The notes under the pieces were generated by a model. The model was not told the DNA's origin. It ran no database searches and was given only the letters and a program-made list of their open reading frames with translations. From a virus (taxonomy: Duplodnaviria; Caudoviricetes): a DNA stretch of 64,000 bases. Below, in pieces: positions 3,014 through 37,285 of the stretch (its first letter is position 1; every line of letters begins with the position of its first letter). A program made the position numbers and the translations under genes. The stretch is taken from the IMG/VR virus record IMGVR_UViG_3300032280_000642, positions 64,001 to 128,000 of that record; one strand, given 5' to 3'.

Positions 3014-4663
3014 TTATGCTACCTGACCACCACTTAATTTAGGACCAATATATCTATATGCAAATGTACCTGATGGATTTCTGTTTGTAACAGATTGCCA
3101 CTTTTTGACAGAGTAGTTTTGTTTAACTGCACCACCACCTCCACCTGCAAATCCTTTAGAACTATTTGATACTACATTCCAACTACCATCATTATTTTTA
3201 GTATTGATTACAACTCCTATATGACCTGATTGTGGCTCCTTTCTTGCGGTATTTAATATATCACCAGGTTGGGCATCCTGCCAAGGTATTCTAAGATATA
3301 AGCTAGTATTTGAGAACCAACCTGCAAGTTCTCCAGTTCCTTTACTACCAAAGTCACCAATTGATTTAGGAATAGATTTTACTGCTTTCCCTGTTCTCAT
3401 ATTAACACCAAACGCTCTGTAGAACATCATAGAAACTGCAGATGCACAACCTTTATTACCTCTATCAGTATCTTCAATATCATACGTTGGATGTCCAATG
3501 TGACTAATCGCAGACGTTATTAAATCTCCAATCCATTGTGAGTTTAGTAAATTAAATCCTTGTGTTGATGTATGTGAATATGTTGTTGGTAATGAAACAA
3601 CTTTCCCTGATGCTACCACTGGTGGTGTATAAGTATTTTCAGTAGATGTCTCTTGTATTGAACTTGAACGAGGATCTACATCAGGAATATTCACTGGTGC
3701 TTCGTCATCACCTACAAACTCACTTTCCTCGTATTCACTACTATCTACACCTTCTCCATCTACAAAGTCATCTTGTTCAGTATTAAGAGTTTCTTGTTCT
3801 AGTGATGGTTCTAATGGTGAATCTTTTGCAATACCTATATAAACTTTTAAAGATAAAACATCCTCTTTAACCTTAACTTTTTCATCTTGTAGATTAATCT
3901 TTATAGGTTCTTTCTTCTTGCTATCTGCACTTATGGCGGTTGCACCTATTGGTGTTGCAGGTACATCAGGCACAATAGGTTGTAAAGGACCTTTATAAGG
4001 TATTATAGAACAACTTTCATTAATTGGTAAACAAATTCCCAAATCATAGTTATCTACTTTTATTTTCCATTTTGATATTATTTCTGATATTATGTCTCTA
4101 TCCTTAATAGTACTTACATACTCCTGTGAGTTATTGCTATATTCAAAGTCACCATTTTTTCCTAAGGTAAAACCTTGTGTCTCACTAGAACTATTAATCT
4201 TAATAGTTTTTTTGAAACTAATATCAGTTGGTGTTAGTTCGTGCCCAGAATCATCACTATATTTTTGACCACCAACATCTTTAGTACCATCTTTCCACAT
4301 TATATAAACAACTGCACCATTATTTAAGTAATAAGGGTCACTTCCATAGTTTCTATAAATAGGTACTTTATTTTCCCAAGGATCTTGTATTATGTAATAT
4401 GATTTACCTTCGATTTTAGAGTTCATATTTATGAATTCACTTATGAATTGATCATCTGTGTAATCCTTATAAGGGCCGGTTTTTTTATATGTAGTTTCCA
4501 TCCAAACCTTTTTACCATCCGGTTTGAGTGGATTATAAACACCCACAACTACTCTTTCATCCGGTCCGAATGTTCGGTTTTGTTTAAAGATAGCAACTCT
4601 AATATCTAAAGTACCTGAGTTAATATCATTTCTTCTTACTCTTACTGCTTTTATCTCATCCAT
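3014..4663 (-). CDS. Virion-associated protein with C-terminal NlpC/P60/CHAP-like peptidoglycan hydrolase domain
   Basis: GCASAVS (Cys) ... AQPGDIL ... GHIGVV (His) ... SNSS, preceded by an acidic linker; lies in the baseplate operon. Confidence 0.65.
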   Translation of the reverse strand: MDEIKAVRVRRNDINSGTLDIRVAIFKQNRTFGPDERVVVGVYNPLKPDGKKVWMETTYKKTGPYKDYTDDQFISEFINMNSKIEGKSYYIIQDPWENKVPIYRNYGSDPYYLNNGAVVYIMWKDGTKDVGGQKYSDDSGHELTPTDISFKKTIKINSSSETQGFTLGKNGDFEYSNNSQEYVSTIKDRDIISEIISKWKIKVDNYDLGICLPINESCSIIPYKGPLQPIVPDVPATPIGATAISADSKKKEPIKINLQDEKVKVKEDVLSLKVYIGIAKDSPLEPSLEQETLNTEQDDFVDGEGVDSSEYEESEFVGDDEAPVNIPDVDPRSSSIQETSTENTYTPPVVASGKVVSLPTTYSHTSTQGFNLLNSQWIGDLITSAISHIGHPTYDIEDTDRGNKGCASAVSMMFYRAFGVNMRTGKAVKSIPKSIGDFGSKGTGELAGWFSNTSLYLRIPWQDAQPGDILNTARKEPQSGHIGVVINTKNNDGSWNVVSNSSKGFAGGGGGAVKQNYSVKKWQSVTNRNPSGTFAYRYIGPKLSGGQVA

Positions 4664-4664
4664 A

Positions 4665-5174
4665 TTATAATCCTCCTATTGAAAATCTTCCATCTTGTAT
4701 TCTAACAGGTTCTCTTGGTACATCTAAAACAACTGGTGGTAATGAATAATCATTTTCAAGATAAGCTTGTCTATTAGGATCAACTTTAGTTGCTTTATTA
4801 GGTAAGTTTGGAGTTGCCAATTGTTTAGTAACATCACTACTTAAATTTTCTAGATCATCATCATTATATCTAAATCTATCAAAATCTTCTGGATTTGGAT
4901 ATTTTAGAATAGTACCTGTTTTTATATTCAACGGATTATCTATATTATTTATAAAAAGTACAACATCTATATCTTGTAAATAATATTGTAACATACTTAC
5001 ATCATATTGATACATATTCATAAATATTAAATCAATTCTCATCTCATCATCTCTTGTTACTTCATATTCTTCTAGTGGAACATTTGCGTTGTAGATAAAA
5101 GTCGGTTGAAATAAATTATAAATATTTTGATCAGGATCAAATCTTACTTGTTTATATAAAGAGTATATGTCCAT
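4665..5174 (-). CDS. gp53-like baseplate wedge protein (LysM-like)
   Basis: YEV..EMRIDLI...INNIDNPLNIKTGTILKYP is the gp53/LysM-type pattern. Confidence 0.65.
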   Translation of the reverse strand: MDIYSLYKQVRFDPDQNIYNLFQPTFIYNANVPLEEYEVTRDDEMRIDLIFMNMYQYDVSMLQYYLQDIDVVLFINNIDNPLNIKTGTILKYPNPEDFDRFRYNDDDLENLSSDVTKQLATPNLPNKATKVDPNRQAYLENDYSLPPVVLDVPREPVRIQDGRFSIGGL

Positions 5175-5219
5175 TATCTATTTTAATTTTTTTTATAAGT
5201 AATTATTGTTCTCATATTT

Positions 5220-7388
5220 TTAGATGTTTAAAGGAATATTATTAAATACTGAAGGATCAAATGGTATAACACCAGATGTTTGTGTTGCAATTGGATTCAT
5301 TACACTCGAACTAACTTCATCTTTTGTTGACTGTGCTGCACTATTTACTGCAGCTTGTGCACCCGCAACTCCTGTATTTACTTGATTTTGTACTCCTGCA
5401 ACTCCTGCATTTACTTGATTTTGTACTCCTGCAACTCCTGCATTTACTTGATTTTGTACTCCTGCAACTCCTGCATTTACTTGATTTTGTACATTTGCCG
5501 CTGCCGCTTGTGCACTGGCTATATTACTTGAAGCAGCAGCAGTTAAATCATTAGTATTTGGTAAAGACTGTCCAAAGTTATTTGCAAAGGTAGGTATCGT
5601 ATTATCAGTTGCTTGAGGTCCTGCTGCCACAGTTGCAATTGCACCACTATTTACAGGGTTTGAAACTGCTGGTGTTATAGCTGGTTGATTTACTGCACCA
5701 CTTTGTAATGAGGTTGCTACTCCTGTATTAGAAGCTGTACCAACAGCATTATCTTGTTTAGTTCCTGTTTTAGTTGCATCTGTTGCATTTTGTTTGTCAC
5801 CTGGATTCATCTGCATATCATCTTTAATAGTAGTCGACACTCTAATACTACCTGCATTAAACTTAGCTATTATTTCTTGTAAACCCCAAGCTCTGGCATT
5901 CTGTAATGTAAAACTTGCTTTTATACTAGAAGGTAAATCATTAAACGCTAATGTTGGTCCTAATGTTAGTGTAACATCCTGATCCATATACATATCTCCT
6001 GCACAAAATATAGGTCTAAGTGGATTACCAATAGTAATGTGCCATGGAGTTGAAGGTGCACCTGTTAGTGCTCTTGCGATACCTTGTATTTCGATTTTAT
6101 ATTTACCTACGGTTCTTCTTAAAACAGAATCTGCTAGGTTTGTAATCTTATCAACTAATTTAGAAGTAGCATCTAATGCTGCAGTATCTGCAGTCTTTTT
6201 TTCTTCTGTCCCATTTTTCTTTGCTTCTGCTGCTGCCGCCTCATCCTTAGTGAAAGTATCTTTAACATTTTTTATGGCATCATCAATTTCCTTCTTAACT
6301 CCGGCTAGACCATCTTTTATTAGCTTAACCATATCAGTTATTATTGACGCAGGATCATTTGTCCATCTAGATATTGTTTGTTCAAATTTAGGAGTTAAAC
6401 CATAGTTTGAACTCTTTGATGTTCCGAAAACTAAAATCTTATTAAGTAAATCTTGAAAAACAATTGTTGGGTCAATACCAGAAAGAAATTTTTGTTCCCA
6501 TTCACACTCCATTTTTATAGAAACTGTACATTTTAAACCAGATCCCGCACCTTCATAACCAATTGTTTTTCTTCTTTTTGCTTCCTTTATAAGGTTTGGG
6601 TTACCAGATGGAAGAGGAACATTAGGATCGTCCTCCATAAGTCCAATTGATGTAAGAATCTGTCTTTGTAAGGACTCTGTAAATCCAGGAAGTGGAACAA
6701 CTGCAAGTGCACCACCAATCTTATCACCAGTTCTATCACCAAGAAAATCCTTACCTAAACTATTTAAAACATTTTTAAAATCCGCATCGGCATCTACCCA
6801 AGATTCACCAAAAGAAATTTCTAAAAAGTTTTCAGTTTGTGGTTTCCAAGAAATCATAATCGCCATTGCCAATGAATTTTCAACTTTTCCAAAAATATTA
6901 TCTAAATGTGGTTTTGTAAATCTTCTTGCAATCATTAATCTATTATTTGGATAAACTCCTATATCTTTAAGATATGCAAAGTCGGCAGGTCTTAATTGTG
7001 CTTCAGTTCCAGATAAGCGTTCTATTATATTTAATAAACTAGTATCATATACTTGGTCATTATGTAATTGTGCTTTCTTAATACCCAAATATTTTGACTT
7101 AACATCAAGTCTACCATTCTCGGTTCTACCAGTACCTATCATTCCATAAGGTGCAATAACAGTTGGTCCACTAAAAATAGATCTAGTACCTTGACTGATA
7201 TTCTCGGTTTTTACACCACCATAAGTATTATCTTCTAAGTTCTGAATAGGATAAACATCTTTACCACTATTATAGTTAGCAACATTGATATTTCTACTTT
7301 TACCACCATTAAATGTTGAAAAACCATTAATATCTCTAGTACTTTTTACACCAATAAGACCAAGTGGTGAACCACCTAAATTAGCCAT
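5220..7388 (-). CDS. Putative baseplate/tail-tube initiator (gp48/gp54-like) with C-terminal low-complexity repeat tail
   Basis: Adjacent to the gp53-like gene; PWHITIGNPLRPIF...FNDLPSSIKASFTL tube-like segment; late promoter upstream. Confidence 0.45.
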   Translation of the reverse strand: MANLGGSPLGLIGVKSTRDINGFSTFNGGKSRNINVANYNSGKDVYPIQNLEDNTYGGVKTENISQGTRSIFSGPTVIAPYGMIGTGRTENGRLDVKSKYLGIKKAQLHNDQVYDTSLLNIIERLSGTEAQLRPADFAYLKDIGVYPNNRLMIARRFTKPHLDNIFGKVENSLAMAIMISWKPQTENFLEISFGESWVDADADFKNVLNSLGKDFLGDRTGDKIGGALAVVPLPGFTESLQRQILTSIGLMEDDPNVPLPSGNPNLIKEAKRRKTIGYEGAGSGLKCTVSIKMECEWEQKFLSGIDPTIVFQDLLNKILVFGTSKSSNYGLTPKFEQTISRWTNDPASIITDMVKLIKDGLAGVKKEIDDAIKNVKDTFTKDEAAAAEAKKNGTEEKKTADTAALDATSKLVDKITNLADSVLRRTVGKYKIEIQGIARALTGAPSTPWHITIGNPLRPIFCAGDMYMDQDVTLTLGPTLAFNDLPSSIKASFTLQNARAWGLQEIIAKFNAGSIRVSTTIKDDMQMNPGDKQNATDATKTGTKQDNAVGTASNTGVATSLQSGAVNQPAITPAVSNPVNSGAIATVAAGPQATDNTIPTFANNFGQSLPNTNDLTAAASSNIASAQAAAANVQNQVNAGVAGVQNQVNAGVAGVQNQVNAGVAGVQNQVNTGVAGAQAAVNSAAQSTKDEVSSSVMNPIATQTSGVIPFDPSVFNNIPLNI
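5365..5492. repeat. 33-bp coding tandem repeat, ~3.9 copies (NAGVAGVQNQV)
   Basis: Unit GCAACTCCTGCATTTACTTGATTTTGTACTCCT at 5365, 5398, 5431, 5464 (first copy has one mismatch, last is partial). Confidence 0.95.
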
Positions 7389-35294: not shown

Positions 35295-35298
35295 ATTC

Positions 35299-35331
35299 AA
35301 TAAATCCTCTTTTTAAGAGGATTTATTTTTT
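35299..35331 (+). terminator. Intrinsic terminator after nrdA
   Basis: AATAAATCCTCTT-TTT-AAGAGGATTTATTTTTT. Confidence 0.75.
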
Positions 35332-35444
35332 ACTATAAAAAATCCACCTTGGAAAAAAGCGAAATTTTCGAGGTTACTATATACATAAAATAAATTAAAA
35401 AAAAGATTAAACTTTTTCTAATTTAGTAATAGAATAATATAACT

Positions 35445-35755
35445 AGTAGCAAATCTAACAGATACATCGAAATGGTATTCAACAAAACTCTGTGGATAAA
35501 TTACTCTGGTTTTATTTATAAAAAAACGCAAACATAGCAAAGTTCTAAGATACTTCGTATATTATACAACTATCAGAAAGAACGTATAGAGACGACTACT
35601 CTATGCTACCATGTAAGGGCATTAGCGCTTGCCTCTGGTCGAAAAGTCAGGAATTCATAAGTTTCCTTCAAAAATATGAGTGAGATGTTGCTTTAAATAT
35701 CGGCAAAGTTAAGTAGAATTCTTTGCGTCGCTTAGGCTAATATTCTTGTTTGCTA
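35445..35755 (+). ncRNA. Candidate Ro60-associated (Y-RNA-like) structured RNA or array of 2-3 RNA modules
   Basis: ORF-free region directly upstream of Ro60; promoter-like AAAC-N17-TAGAA at 35409-35434; repeated GCAAA..GATAC(A/T)TCG starts; multiple helices; 5' TAGCAAA can pair with 3' TTTGCTA; strong terminator follows. Confidence 0.6.
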
Positions 35756-35764
35756 AATTATAAT

Positions 35765-35804
35765 AAGACCAGATTTACAGAAATGTAATTCTGGTCTTTT
35801 TTTT
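35765..35804 (+). terminator. Strong intrinsic terminator between ncRNA region and Ro60 gene
   Basis: AAGACCAGATTTACA-GAAA-TGTAATTCTGGTCTTTTTTTT. Confidence 0.85.
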
Positions 35805-35836
35805 ACAAAAAAACGAAATAAAAATAAAATAATAAT

Positions 35837-37285
35837 ATGTCAAAATTTAACACAACCGTAAAAGAACCAAAAACAAAAACTATAAACCTAGCAGGTGGTG
35901 AAGCTTATTCTCAAACAAACGAATTAGCTTTAGTATCTATGTTACTAACTTCATTTGTGAATGATCAGTTCTACAAGTCTGGTAATGATACATTAAAAGA
36001 TTTAAGAAGTTTGATTAAGAAAGTAGATCCTGAGTTTGCCGCGAAAGCTGCTATTTATGCTCGTGATAAATTTGGTATGAGAAGTATTACTCACGCTTTG
36101 GCAGGTGAATTGACATCAGAATTAAAAGGTAGTGAATTAGGTAAAAACTTCTATGACAAAGTTGTAGTTCGTGTTGATGATATGACTGAGATTATGTCAT
36201 ACTACTTAATGCACAAAACAAGTAAAGACAATCCAAAGTTCCCAAACTCTTTGAAAAAAGGATTTGCAAAAGCTTTCGATAAATTTGATGCGTACCAGTT
36301 AGCGAAATATTCTGGTAAAAACAAAGACCTTAAATTGGTTGACTTGGTGAACATTGTACACCCTGTTCCAACTGATAGAAACAAAACTGCCTTAGAATTA
36401 CTTGTTAAAGGTGATTTGAAAAACACTGAAACTTGGGAAGCTAAACTTTCTCAAGCAGGTCAAGTAGCCGAAAATGAAGAAGATTTAACTCAATTAAAAG
36501 CTGATGCTTGGACTGATTTAATCACTTCAAGAAAAATTGGTTATTTTGCACTTTTAAGAAACCTAAGAAATATCTTAAATCAAGCACCTAACGCAGTTCC
36601 GGCTGCTTGTGAGTTGTTAGTAGATGAGAAAATGATTAGTAAATCAAGAGTTTTACCTTTTAGATTTGCGACTGCTTATGAAGAAATCAGTAAAATGGGT
36701 TCTTCAAAAGGAGTTAGAGAAGTATTGGTTGCAATAAACCAAGCGTTAGAGGTTTCAATGTGTAATGTTCCTAAGTTTGATGGTGATACATTAGTTGTTA
36801 TGGACGTTTCTGGATCAATGAGTGGAAGACCTTCTGAGATTGCTTCATTATTTGGTGCGATTTTAGCAAAATCTAATAATGCGGATGTTTTAACATTCGC
36901 CAACAGAGCTGATTACAAGTCATATAATCCATTGGATTCTGTTATGACAATTAGAAATAGTTTTAGATACTCTGGTGGTGGTACGAATTTCAAATCAATC
37001 TTTACAACTGCTAATAAAAAGTACGATAGAGTAGTAATACTCTCAGACCTTCAAGGTTGGATTGGTTACACAAGTCCAAGTGCTGAGTTTAAACAATACA
37101 AGAAAACATATGATGCGAATCCTTATGTTTACTCTTGGGATCTTGCCGGACTCGGCACAATGCAGTTTCCAGAAAACAATGTATTTGCTTTGGCTGGTTT
37201 CTCTGATAAAGTTTTTGACGTAATGAAGATGATGGAGATGGATAAAAAAGCTCTTTTCAATGAAATTAAAGCTATTCAACTTTAA
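35837..37285 (+). CDS. rsr: Ro60/TROVE-domain RNA-binding protein with C-terminal vWA domain
   Basis: NLAGGEAY, AIYAR..GMRS, FDAYQLAKY, LLRNLRNI, SRVLPFRF, MIDAS DVSGSM, GGTN, ILSD, LAGFSDKVF. Confidence 0.92.
   Translation: MSKFNTTVKEPKTKTINLAGGEAYSQTNELALVSMLLTSFVNDQFYKSGNDTLKDLRSLIKKVDPEFAAKAAIYARDKFGMRSITHALAGELTSELKGSELGKNFYDKVVVRVDDMTEIMSYYLMHKTSKDNPKFPNSLKKGFAKAFDKFDAYQLAKYSGKNKDLKLVDLVNIVHPVPTDRNKTALELLVKGDLKNTETWEAKLSQAGQVAENEEDLTQLKADAWTDLITSRKIGYFALLRNLRNILNQAPNAVPAACELLVDEKMISKSRVLPFRFATAYEEISKMGSSKGVREVLVAINQALEVSMCNVPKFDGDTLVVMDVSGSMSGRPSEIASLFGAILAKSNNADVLTFANRADYKSYNPLDSVMTIRNSFRYSGGGTNFKSIFTTANKKYDRVVILSDLQGWIGYTSPSAEFKQYKKTYDANPYVYSWDLAGLGTMQFPENNVFALAGFSDKVFDVMKMMEMDKKALFNEIKAIQL

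What the first reader, a model, noticed from the sequence alone, without database searches (positions are those of the whole stretch)
35409..37285. Phage Ro60 (Rsr) locus with a separately transcribed, modular structured RNA: candidate new Y-RNA class
Seen: the largest non-coding gap in the window (~540 nt) lies directly before an intact TROVE+vWA gene. It has its own promoter-like site (AAAC-N17-TAGAA, 35409-34) and a strong terminator (35765-804), defining a ~310-nt transcript. It contains three related module starts: TAGCAAATCTAACAGATACATCG (35447), TAGCAAAGTTCTAAGATACTTCG (35535) and CGGCAAAGTTAAG (35701). Complementary ends ATGTTGCT (35685) and TGTTTGCTA (35747) follow. Module 1 folds as AGTAG/TTACT, a CAA/AAA internal loop, then ATCTAACAGA/TCTGTGGAT with a bulged A. 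Further hairpins are GTATAGAG/CTCTATGC (7-nt loop), GGGCA/TGCCT and CTGGT-CGAAAA-GTCAG; the last starts like the metazoan Y-RNA CUGGUCCGA strand. Established: Ro60 binds a bulged terminal helix of Y RNAs, and bacterial rsr genes are usually flanked by Yrn/Yrl RNAs. Inference: these are Ro-binding RNAs lacking the TTCGA tRNA-like domain of YrlA, perhaps processed into several RNAs that tether host nucleases or act as decoys during infection.
Basis: partly seen in the sequence, partly recalled or inferred. Interest (0 to 1): 0.85.

Follow-up and report, generated by a model that had tools for sequence, protein, structure and literature searches.

The report
Two phage Y RNAs without tRNA mimic
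Just upstream of a large phage's Ro60 gene lie two conserved folded RNAs, one short and one long, that carry the same end-paired "handle" as the known bacterial and phage Y RNAs (YrlA) but have either nothing or a bundle of hairpins where YrlA has a tRNA look-alike.

Summary
The 542-nt gap at 35295-35836 is the largest ORF-free stretch in the window. It lies before an intact TROVE+vWA (Ro60) gene.

The gap holds two RNAs on the + strand, not three modules:
- M1, 35441-35511, about 70 nt.
- M2, 35528-35753, about 226 nt.
- A conserved promoter-like site precedes them and a strong conserved terminator follows.

Twenty-five distinct related phage loci keep both RNAs, with heavy compensatory change (M1: 95.6% paired, 11 of 18 pairs covary).

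Both RNAs share one handle: P1 helix, one bulged base, AGYGA opposite UUWCU, P2 helix, then the invariant loop word UACUUCG. A covariance model of M1 finds this handle beside distant Ro60 genes, almost always on the gene's strand. These include crAss-like, Arthrobacter and Caulobacter phages. In some of them the handle encloses a YrlA-type tRNA-like domain.

So these are Y RNAs of the YrlA lineage, not a new class. What is new is the cargo: none in M1, a multi-hairpin domain in M2, and no tRNA mimic detected in this clade. Ro60 binding and expression are inferred, not shown.

This scan has noted the same RNA family on other DNA (e1-5806926).

The parts
35346..35374 (+). H0: small hairpin (10-bp stem, loop AAAGCGAAA) inside a conserved block (35332-35390) that begins with CTATAAA and ends with TATATAC. 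Its role is unknown. It may be an upstream promoter or operator, or the 5' hairpin of a longer primary transcript.
   Evidence: Folds at -8.9 kcal/mol, z -2.3. In 13 close relatives 97.7% of cells pair, with compensatory changes at two pairs, against 37-74% when the partners are slid. The hairpin is lost in the more distant clade, where only the flanks persist.
35407..35435 (+). Promoter-like site TTAAAC-17 nt-TAGAAT. The expected start, about 6-8 nt downstream, coincides with the first base of M1.
   Evidence: Read from the sequence. Both hexamer blocks are conserved as (T/A)AAACTTTT ... (A)TA(T/G)AA in 22 of 25 distinct relatives while the spacer varies. The generic sigma-70 scan does not list it. 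No transcription data exist.
35441..35511 (+). M1: short Y RNA consisting of the handle only. P1 35441-46 pairs with 35506-11. U35447 is bulged. AG 48-49 pairs with CU 04-05. C50 faces A03. AA 51-52 pairs with UU 01-02. P2 35453-62 pairs with 35489-97, with A58 bulged. The loop begins with AUACAUCG (family consensus UUACUUCG) and ends with an A-rich run.
   Evidence: Alignment A1 of 25 loci: 95.6% of cells paired (shuffles 81%, slid 30-52%), 11 of 18 pairs with compensatory change, 0 of 500 shuffles as high. G-U 41 against A-C 4 fixes the + strand. The covariance model R1 scores it 63 bits.
35528..35753 (+). M2: long Y RNA with the same handle. P1 35528-34 pairs with 35747-53. U35535 is bulged. 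AG 36-37 pairs with CU 45-46. P2 35541-49 pairs with 35731-38. AUACUUCG lies at 35550-57. The handle encloses a cargo of about 173 nt. Cargo hairpins: 35584-91/35599-606; 35617-21/35630-34, nested in UACC/GGU; AGGAA/UUCCU 35649-53/35664-68; GAGUG.. 35679-93; GCAAAG/CUUUGC 35703-26.
   Evidence: Handle pairs counted on alignment A2: 92.1% paired (slid 26-58%), 9 of 20 pairs compensatory, for example GCAAACA/UGUUUGC becomes GAGGACA/UGUCCUC. G-U 69 against A-C 6. Three 3'-side cargo helices (AGGAA/UUCCU, GAGUG, GCAAAG/CUUUGC) covary between clades, for example AGGAA/UUCCU against CAAGAA/UUCUUG. The handle descriptor finds it at 35530-35751.
35765..35806 (+). Intrinsic terminator: 9+5-bp stem AGACCAGAU.UACAG...CUGUA.UUCUGGUCU followed by U8. 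It ends the RNA unit 30 nt before the Ro60 start codon.
   Evidence: -18.4 kcal/mol, z -6.4, 0 of 200 shuffles. The stem GACCAGA/UCUGGUC plus the U run is kept in all 25 relatives, with compensatory variants (AAUCAGAG/CUCUGAUU in L020) and free loops.
35837..37285 (+). Ro60 (Rsr) ortholog, 482 aa: TROVE HEAT-repeat ring plus vWA domain with the MIDAS motif DVSGS. It is the only TROVE gene in the 150-kb record.
   Evidence: Pfam TROVE 4.1e-20, vWA_CoxE and vWA_Ro60 below cut-off. PDB 9KOP/9L5Y (phiLo Ro60) E 7e-26 over residues 13-475; human and Xenopus Ro60 at 1e-5 and 4e-4. Translation. One TROVE locus in the genome.

Best explanation
The gap encodes two non-coding Y RNAs, transcribed on the same strand as the Ro60 gene and ended by their own terminator.

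Both RNAs pair their 5' and 3' ends into one conserved handle. It consists of helix P1, a single bulged base, AG:CU, a Y-W mismatch, GA:UU and helix P2, followed by the invariant single-stranded word UACUUCG. An A-rich run lies on the return strand. This handle is the Ro60-docking module of the YrlA lineage of bacterial and phage Y RNAs, and the phage Ro60 ring most likely binds it (inferred).

The handle is a socket that carries interchangeable cargo:
- nothing in M1, as in Salmonella YrlB;
- a multi-hairpin domain of about 173 nt in M2;
- a tRNA mimic in other phages.

By analogy with Deinococcus Yrn1 and Thermus phage phiLo Yrl1/Yrl2, which bring Ro60 together with PNPase, the cargo of M2 would recruit or block a host RNA-processing factor during infection. 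M1 would gate or titrate the Ro60 cavity (inferred).

The terminator sits 30 nt before the start codon, and only a generic sigma-70-like match overlaps that stretch. Ro60 mRNA may therefore arise largely by read-through, which would give RNA in excess over protein (inferred).
For: 1. Real RNAs on the + strand.
- Covariation in M1, in the M2 handle and in three of the M2 cargo helices.
- G-U pairs far outnumber A-C pairs.
- A conserved promoter-like site and a conserved terminator.

2. Linked to Ro60.
- All 29 loci (25 distinct sequences) whose Ro60 is 67-98% identical keep a 510-800-nt gap holding both RNAs.
- Model R1 finds full-length hits on the gene's strand next to Ro60 genes of only 26-54% identity. 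These include cr111_1, csAssE-Sib, crAss001 and Arthrobacter phage Atuin.
- A pairing-aware handle descriptor gives 61 hits on the gene strand, 2 on the other strand and 0 in shuffled sequence.
- In 80 IMG/VR loci fetched by a bare 15-base motif, 8 of the 15 with an R1 hit carry Ro60 on the same strand, against 0 of the 65 without one (Fisher p 2e-7).

3. Same handle as YrlA.
- In csAssE-Sib the R1 hit encloses an Rfam YrlA hit with T and D arms.
- L028 has a handle plus a tRNA-like body.
- CcrColossus and Gordonia Rabbitrun YrlA-type RNAs show P1, bulge, GGCGUA or GCGUA, P2, AUUUCUUCG or UUACUUCC ... AAAAAGUG or AAAAACA, P2', P1'.

4. Precedent.
- Two Y-like RNAs upstream of a phage Ro60 bind it and PNPase in phiLo (PMC12135203).
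- YrlA RNAs lie within 4 kb of Ro60 on the same strand (PMC4201824).
Against: - There is no expression, end-mapping or binding evidence for any member of this clade.
- The literal Ro60-contact motif of the literature (GNCGAAN0-1G, or CGAA) is not conserved at either candidate position. The family has AGYGA and GAG(A/U)UACUUCG instead, so the docking site is assigned by architecture and homology only.
- R1 does not detect the experimentally validated phiLo Yrl region.
- M1 alone is not thermodynamically exceptional (z -0.48).
- 7 of the 15 R1-positive loci from the motif scan show no Ro60 in the fetched stretch. Two of these are cut short and five are unexplained.
- The homology with YrlA rests on sub-threshold Rfam hits (28-42 bits against a gathering score of 69) and on reading by eye.
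Confidence: 0.8

Rival explanations
1. The folded region is a cis-acting 5' leader of the Ro60 mRNA. In this reading it is an autoregulatory attenuator: Ro60 binds its own leader and controls read-through of the terminator. The RNAs would not be free-standing and trans-acting.
For: - The terminator ends only 30 nt before the start codon.
- Only a generic sigma-70-like match (TTTACA-17-TAAAAT, 35802-35830) lies between the two.
- In this clade the RNAs are always upstream and co-oriented.
Against: - The same handle RNAs lie downstream of Ro60 in crAss001, L036 and Atuin, and in tandem arrays or among tRNA genes. No leader role is possible there.
- Members with tRNA-like cargo are YrlA-type free RNAs.
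- Two complete end-paired units are more than an attenuator needs.
- The two roles are not mutually exclusive.
Confidence: 0.07
2. They are structured phage RNAs that travel with Ro60 but work through another partner. Examples would be decoys or substrates for host RNase P, RNase E or tRNA enzymes, or for a defence nuclease. Ro60 would not be the direct ligand of the handle.
For: - Handle RNAs often abut tRNA genes (Atuin 1947-2018 next to a tRNA at 2019; L040).
- 5 of the 15 R1-positive loci from the motif scan have no Ro60 in a stretch of 5-14 kb.
- The published CGAA contact motif is not conserved here.
Against: - The statistical association with Ro60 is strong and strand-specific.
- The handle is homologous to that of YrlA-type RNAs, and Rsr binding has been shown for S. 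Typhimurium YrlA and YrlB (PMC4201824).
- The bulged-helix architecture matches the Ro60 site of animal Y RNAs (PMC12135203 introduction).
Confidence: 0.1
3. The conserved element is read from the minus strand. There the invariant word becomes CGAAGUA, which contains the published CGAA(G) Ro60 motif, or it reflects a small ORF (35418-35540, minus strand, 40 aa).
For: - The reverse complement of UACUUCG is CGAAGUA.
- A 40-aa TTG-start ORF overlaps M1 on the minus strand.
Against: - G-U pairs (41 and 69) far outnumber A-C pairs (4 and 6). The helices therefore only work on the + strand.
- The terminator has its U run on the + strand.
- CM and descriptor hits are 61:2 in favour of the gene strand.
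- The substitution pattern is compensatory in helices, not codon-like.
Confidence: 0.02

Closest known systems
YrlA (Y RNA-like A; Rfam RF02553; Chen et al. 2014, PMC4201824), with its companion YrlB of Salmonella
   Same: - Encoded next to Ro60 on the same strand, often more than one RNA per locus.
- The 5' and 3' ends pair into a stem that carries the presumed Ro60 site.
- The inner handle (P2, AU(A/G)CUU......AAAAAC(A/U), P2') aligns with the outer stem of the Rfam YrlA model.
- Phage RNAs that score on the YrlA model (CcrColossus, Gordonia Rabbitrun, csAssE-Sib) show the whole handle.
- M1, with a handle only, parallels the small YrlB.
   Different: - No tRNA-like domain: no T arm, D arm or acceptor-like stem, and no Rfam YrlA or tRNA signal.
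- M2 carries a multi-hairpin cargo of about 173 nt instead.
- The GNCGAAN0-1G motif is not present as such.
[quoted passage not shown] In this phage clade none was found within 3 kb of Ro60.
Thermus phage phiLo Ro60 with Yrl1 and Yrl2 (PMC12135203; PDB 9KOP, 9L5Y)
   Same: - A phage Ro60 gene with two Y-RNA-like RNAs directly upstream on the same strand.
- phiLo Ro60 is the closest solved relative of the window's protein (E 7e-26).
- It supplies the working model: Ro60, Y RNA and host PNPase.
   Different: - The phiLo RNAs were defined by a CGAA motif.
- Model R1 finds nothing in the phiLo upstream region, and I saw no handle there.
- No binding data exist for the window's RNAs.
Deinococcus radiodurans Yrn1 and metazoan Y RNAs (Rfam RF00019)
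   Same: - Modular plan: an end-paired stem with a bulged helix that docks Ro60, plus a variable effector module.
- Here, as in animal Y RNAs, one unpaired pyrimidine precedes a GA that pairs with UU on the 3' strand.
   Different: - No sequence or covariance-model similarity.
- The GGUCCGA word is absent. The CUGGUCGA-like word at 35635 is not conserved.
- The extra P2 plus UACUUCG element has no counterpart that I could verify.

Membership tests
YrlA (Rfam RF02553) | Scores at or above the family's gathering threshold (69 bits) on the Rfam covariance model | tested here: not met
   No YrlA hit in the window at the gathering score, in the gap at E<=10, in the 150-kb record at E<=0.01, or in 9 relatives at E<=0.1. 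Control phages give 28-42 bits.
YrlA (Rfam RF02553) | tRNA-like domain: conserved T arm (GGUUCGAAUCC type), D arm, and an acceptor-like stem between them | tested here: not met
   ARAGORN finds nothing in the window. Rfam tRNA and YrlA give no hit. The M2 cargo helices have non-T-loop loops that vary between relatives.
YrlA (Rfam RF02553) | Encoded within about 4 kb of a Ro60 ortholog, on the same strand | tested here: met
   M1 and M2 end 326 and 84 nt before the Ro60 start codon, on the + strand.
YrlA (Rfam RF02553) | GNCGAAN0-1G motif near the 5' end (presumed Rsr contact) | tested here: not met
   The two candidate positions read UAGCAA and GAUACAUCG in M1 of the window, and AGYGA and GAG(A/U)UACUUCG in the family. 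CGAA follows UACUU in only some members.
YrlA-type handle (end-paired P1, bulge, RGYRA, P2, NUACWUC ... P2', UUNCYC, P1') | Both helices present and covarying, with the three conserved words in register | tested here: met
   M1. M2. The same handle encloses YrlA or tRNA-like bodies in L050 and L028 and is seen by eye in CcrColossus and Gordonia Rabbitrun.
Y RNA (functional class) | Bound by Ro60 in vivo or in vitro | not testable with these tools
   This needs RIP, EMSA or a structure. Here there is only genomic association.
Y RNA (functional class) | Expressed as a discrete small RNA | not testable with these tools
   A conserved promoter-like site and a terminator are present, but no RNA data are held for this uncultured phage.
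Metazoan Y_RNA (RF00019) | Match to the covariance model, with a GGUCCGA/UUGACU bulged lower stem | tested here: not met
   No hit at E<=10. The only CUGGUCGA-like word (35635-42) is not conserved.
Ro60 / Rsr protein | TROVE HEAT-repeat ring followed by a vWA domain with a MIDAS motif, full length | tested here: met
   Pfam TROVE 72.8 bits (cut-off 23). Alignment to phiLo Ro60 over residues 13-475, E 7e-26. DVSGS motif. The fold itself was not predicted here.

The most novel reading that the evidence does not exclude
The YrlA handle is a universal Ro60 socket that phages load with interchangeable cargo. In this clade of large Bacteroidota-type phages the tRNA mimic has been replaced by a conserved multi-hairpin domain. 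That domain would recruit a host factor other than those recognised through tRNA mimicry, giving a new effector class of Y RNA. The phage would use it to redirect or disarm host RNA decay or an RNA-targeting defence.
Probability: 0.35. Interest if true: 0.7.

Novelty: new variant of a known kind. Interest (0 to 1): 0.55.

Why it matters
Y RNAs are thought to work as modular adaptors. One module docks the Ro60 ring and the other selects the partner. In bacteria and phages the only effector module described so far is a tRNA mimic.

This locus and its 25 relatives give a clean natural comparison on one handle: no cargo, hairpin cargo and, in other phages, tRNA-like cargo. That makes the question of what the cargo does directly testable with one protein and a set of swapped RNAs.

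The analysis also defines the handle more fully than the Rfam YrlA model, which covers only the P2-to-P2' part. It shows the handle beside Ro60 genes in crAss-like gut phages, including cultured crAss001, where these RNAs are unannotated.

The basic idea is already established: phage Ro60 with upstream Y-like RNAs (phiLo, 2025) and YrlA in phages (2014). This is an extension, not a new kind of system.

Tried and rejected
1. Rfam. No family matches the gap. The best hits are terminator look-alikes (L20 leader, Phe leader).
2. ARAGORN. No tRNA or tmRNA in the window.
3. Minus-strand reading and the 40-aa ORF. Rejected on G-U against A-C counts.
4. Both are internal hairpins of M2.
5. The CUGGU-CGAAAA-GUCAG hairpin. 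Not conserved.
6. A local hairpin AUAGUU/AACUAU closing the UACUUCG loop of M2. It is absent in the clade of L013, L019 and L021-24. The long-range P2 with CUUAGGCUA is kept instead and matches M1.
7. RNAalifold's alternative UAGC/GCUA pairing in M2. It has some covariation but conflicts with the handle shared with M1 and the wider family. It is left open as a possible alternative conformer.
8. Similarity to phiLo Yrl1/Yrl2. R1 finds nothing there, and the UUUACUUCGG word lies in what looks like a coding fragment.
9. The bare-motif scan of IMG/VR. Most of the 119+ matches are chance, since 15 specified bases are too few for a collection of that size. It became informative only after filtering with R1.
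10. A second Ro60-like (DUF2828) partner for the ACAGCAA-like loop in M2. None is present in the 150-kb record.
11. I did not build a full covariance model of M2. The alignment has 440 columns, which is over the limit, so cargo covariation rests on RNAalifold and my own counts.
Full report
**What is in the sequence**

The window comes from a 150-kb IMG/VR virus record estimated at 25% complete. Its nearest public relative is a 635-kb uncultured phage, LR745206.1.

- The ORF at 35837-37285 is a full-length Ro60/Rsr ortholog. Pfam TROVE scores 72.8 bits, and the vWA models score just below cut-off.
- Its best solved relative is Thermus phage phiLo Ro60, E 7e-26 over residues 13-475.
- A DVSGS MIDAS motif is present.
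- It is the only TROVE gene in the record.
- Upstream lies the large subunit of ribonucleotide reductase.
- The 542-nt gap between them is the largest ORF-free stretch in the window at three ORF cut-offs.
- No Rfam family reaches its threshold anywhere in the window, and there is no tRNA.

**Conservation**

A protein-anchored scan of IMG/VR returned 38 loci. Together with LR745206.1, 29 loci whose Ro60 is 67-98% identical all keep a gap of 510-800 nt before the gene. After removing duplicates, 25 distinct upstream sequences align over most of the gap. The alignment resolves these parts:
- a conserved block with a hairpin (H0);
- a promoter-like pair of hexamers;
- a short RNA (M1);
- a long RNA (M2);
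- a terminator.

**M1 (35441-35511)**

RNAalifold gives this structure: P1 (6 bp in the window), one bulged U, AG:CU, a pyrimidine facing A/U/C, GA:UU, then a 10-bp P2 closing a loop. The loop starts with the invariant (U/A)UACUUCG and ends with an A-rich run.
- On 24 distinct rows 95.6% of cells form standard pairs.
- Shuffled partners give 81%, and partners slid by 1-3 columns give 30-52%.
- 11 of 18 pairs show changes on both sides, and no shuffle in 500 reaches any of the five measures.
It is not thermodynamically unusual (z -0.48). The evidence is comparative, not energetic.

**M2 (35528-35753)**

M2 starts with the same words as M1 (UAGCAAA ... GAUACUUCG). Its 5' end GCAAACA pairs with UGUUUGC 220 nt downstream. 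This helix covaries completely in some relatives: GAGGACA/UGUCCUC, ACAAAUA/UAUUUGU, AACAAACA/UGUUUGUU.

Reading M2 on the plan of M1 gives P1, bulged U, AG:CU, mismatch, GA:UU, and a long-range P2 (UAGUUUGAG with CUUAGGCUA).
- On alignment A2 these 20 pairs are 92.1% paired, against 26-58% when slid. Nine show compensatory change.
- Some unpaired cells come from MAFFT misplacing three rows.

M2 is therefore M1 with its apical loop expanded to about 173 nt. The expansion holds several hairpins. Three of them covary between clades:
- AGGAA/UUCCU against CAAGAA/UUCUUG;
- GAGUG/CACU against GGAU/AUCC;
- CAAAG-UUUC against CCAGACCUC.

Other hairpins are clade-specific or deleted in some relatives.

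**Strand and transcription signals**

- Over the supported pairs G-U outnumbers A-C by 41:4 in M1 and 69:6 in M2, so the RNAs are read from the + strand.
- TTAAAC-17-TAGAAT (35407-35435) would start transcription at about the first base of M1. Both hexamer blocks are kept in 22 of 25 relatives.
- The hairpin plus U8 at 35765-35806 is a strong terminator (z -6.4). It is kept in every relative, with compensatory variants.
- It ends 30 nt before the Ro60 start codon, and only a generic sigma-70-like match overlaps that stretch. Ro60 may therefore be translated from read-through transcripts. This is an inference.

**Is the RNA tied to Ro60?**

A covariance model of M1 (R1) finds exactly one copy in the 150-kb record. 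It also finds full-length hits, on the gene's strand, next to Ro60 genes that are only 26-54% identical:
- often two or three per locus;
- sometimes downstream of the gene;
- sometimes abutting tRNA genes.

It also hits the crAss-like phages cr111_1 and csAssE-Sib. With filters off it hits crAss001 and Arthrobacter phage Atuin.

A regular-expression descriptor that demands both helices gives 61 hits on the gene strand, 2 on the other strand and none in shuffled sequence. Spans run from 60 to 312 nt, so cargo sizes differ.

For a test not anchored on the protein, I fetched 80 IMG/VR loci by a 15-base motif alone.
- Most are chance matches.
- 15 have an R1 hit.
- 8 of those 15 encode Ro60 on the same strand within the fetched stretch, against 0 of the other 65 (Fisher p 2e-7).
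- Of the 7 without Ro60, two are cut short and five are unexplained.

**Relation to known Y RNAs**

Chen et al. (PMC4201824) defined YrlA by three features: a 5' GNCGAAN0-1G motif, a tRNA-like T/D/acceptor domain, and a position within 4 kb of Ro60 on the same strand. Rfam holds it as RF02553.

Negative results for this clade:
- The model gives nothing in the gap (E<=10).
- It gives nothing in the whole record.
- It gives nothing within 3 kb of Ro60 in nine diverse relatives (E<=0.1).

The same kind of search gives 28-42-bit hits in CcrColossus, Gordonia Rabbitrun, Atuin and csAssE-Sib.

The csAssE-Sib case is decisive. The YrlA hit, with GGUUCGAGUCC T arm and D arm, lies inside an R1 hit. There the handle of M1 encloses a YrlA body. 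Further support:
- In the cmscan alignments the outer stem and AUGCUU of the YrlA model align with P2 and AUACUU.
- Locus L028 has two M1-like RNAs followed by a handle that encloses a full tRNA-like body.
- The CcrColossus and Gordonia RNAs show, by eye, P1, a bulge, GGCGUA or GCGUA, P2, AUUUCUUCG or UUACUUCC, then AAAAAGUG or AAAAACA, P2' and P1'.

The handle is therefore that of the YrlA lineage. The literal CGAA motif is not conserved at either candidate position.

The validated phiLo RNAs (PMC12135203) are not detected by R1.

**How it most likely works**

Shown:
- Two conserved, covarying, co-oriented RNAs with a YrlA-type handle lie next to a phage Ro60 gene.
- There is no tRNA-like domain.
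- The cargo is modular across the family.

Inferred:
- Ro60 binds the handle.
- M2's cargo engages a host factor, and M1 is a cargo-less gate or competitor.
- The RNP acts on host RNA decay or on a defence early in infection. The crAss001 TROVE gene is an early gene (PMC8375218).

The rivals are a cis-acting leader, a partner other than Ro60, and the minus strand. Each is weighed in its own section, and none fits the distribution of the family.

**Verdict**

Its interpretation is right in kind (Ro60 partner RNAs without a tRNA mimic) and wrong in degree: it is not a new class but a cargo variant of the YrlA lineage. No paper in the held library describes it. This scan has already met the same family on other DNA.

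Noticed in passing
window 35332-35390: A conserved block upstream of the promoter-like site reads CTATAAAnAATCCACC, then a hairpin (35346-35374, loop AAnYGAAA), then GGTTGATATATAC. The hairpin covaries in 13 close relatives (97.7% paired) but is lost in the more distant clade, where only the TATAAA-like flanks persist. In L001 and L014 the downstream AAACTTTT promoter block is missing, and this block sits directly before M1.
   Followed up: partly
L046 (Bacteroides phage crAss001, NC_049977.1) 4420-5325: The 906-nt unannotated gap just after the TROVE gene gp96 holds at least three complete handle RNAs (4518-4597, 4612-4685, 5091-5232). It also holds two tRNA-like bodies with a handle-like UAGUG...GAGUUACUUCA insert; one is an unannotated Rfam tRNA hit at 4693-4836.
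   Followed up: partly
L028 2691-2985 (IMG/VR 3300033148_002693): Three tandem handle RNAs lie before Ro60. Two carry no cargo. The third encloses a full tRNA-like body with D arm, anticodon-like arm and T arm (Rfam tRNA 52 bits, model positions 3-68). A single locus therefore shows both cargo states.
   Followed up: partly
L038, L039, L045, L055 and other distant Ro60 loci: Distant phage Ro60 genes commonly sit inside or beside large tRNA arrays. Handle RNAs are interleaved with them, sometimes ending exactly where a tRNA begins (Atuin 1947-2018 and tRNA-Trp at 2019). This suggests release by tRNA-processing enzymes.
   Followed up: no
window 35592-35598 and relatives (M2 first cargo hairpin): In most relatives the loop of this hairpin reads AGCGACAGCAA. 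This resembles the ACAGCAA 'handle' that earlier notes of this scan tie to DUF2828-type Ro60-like proteins. No DUF2828 gene is in the 150-kb record, so it may be coincidence.
   Followed up: partly
L062, L070, L086, L098, L135 (IMG/VR loci from the motif scan): Full R1 handle hits, up to five in tandem in L135, occur with no Ro60-like ORF in the 5-14 kb fetched. Either the gene lies further away or these RNAs have another partner.
   Followed up: no
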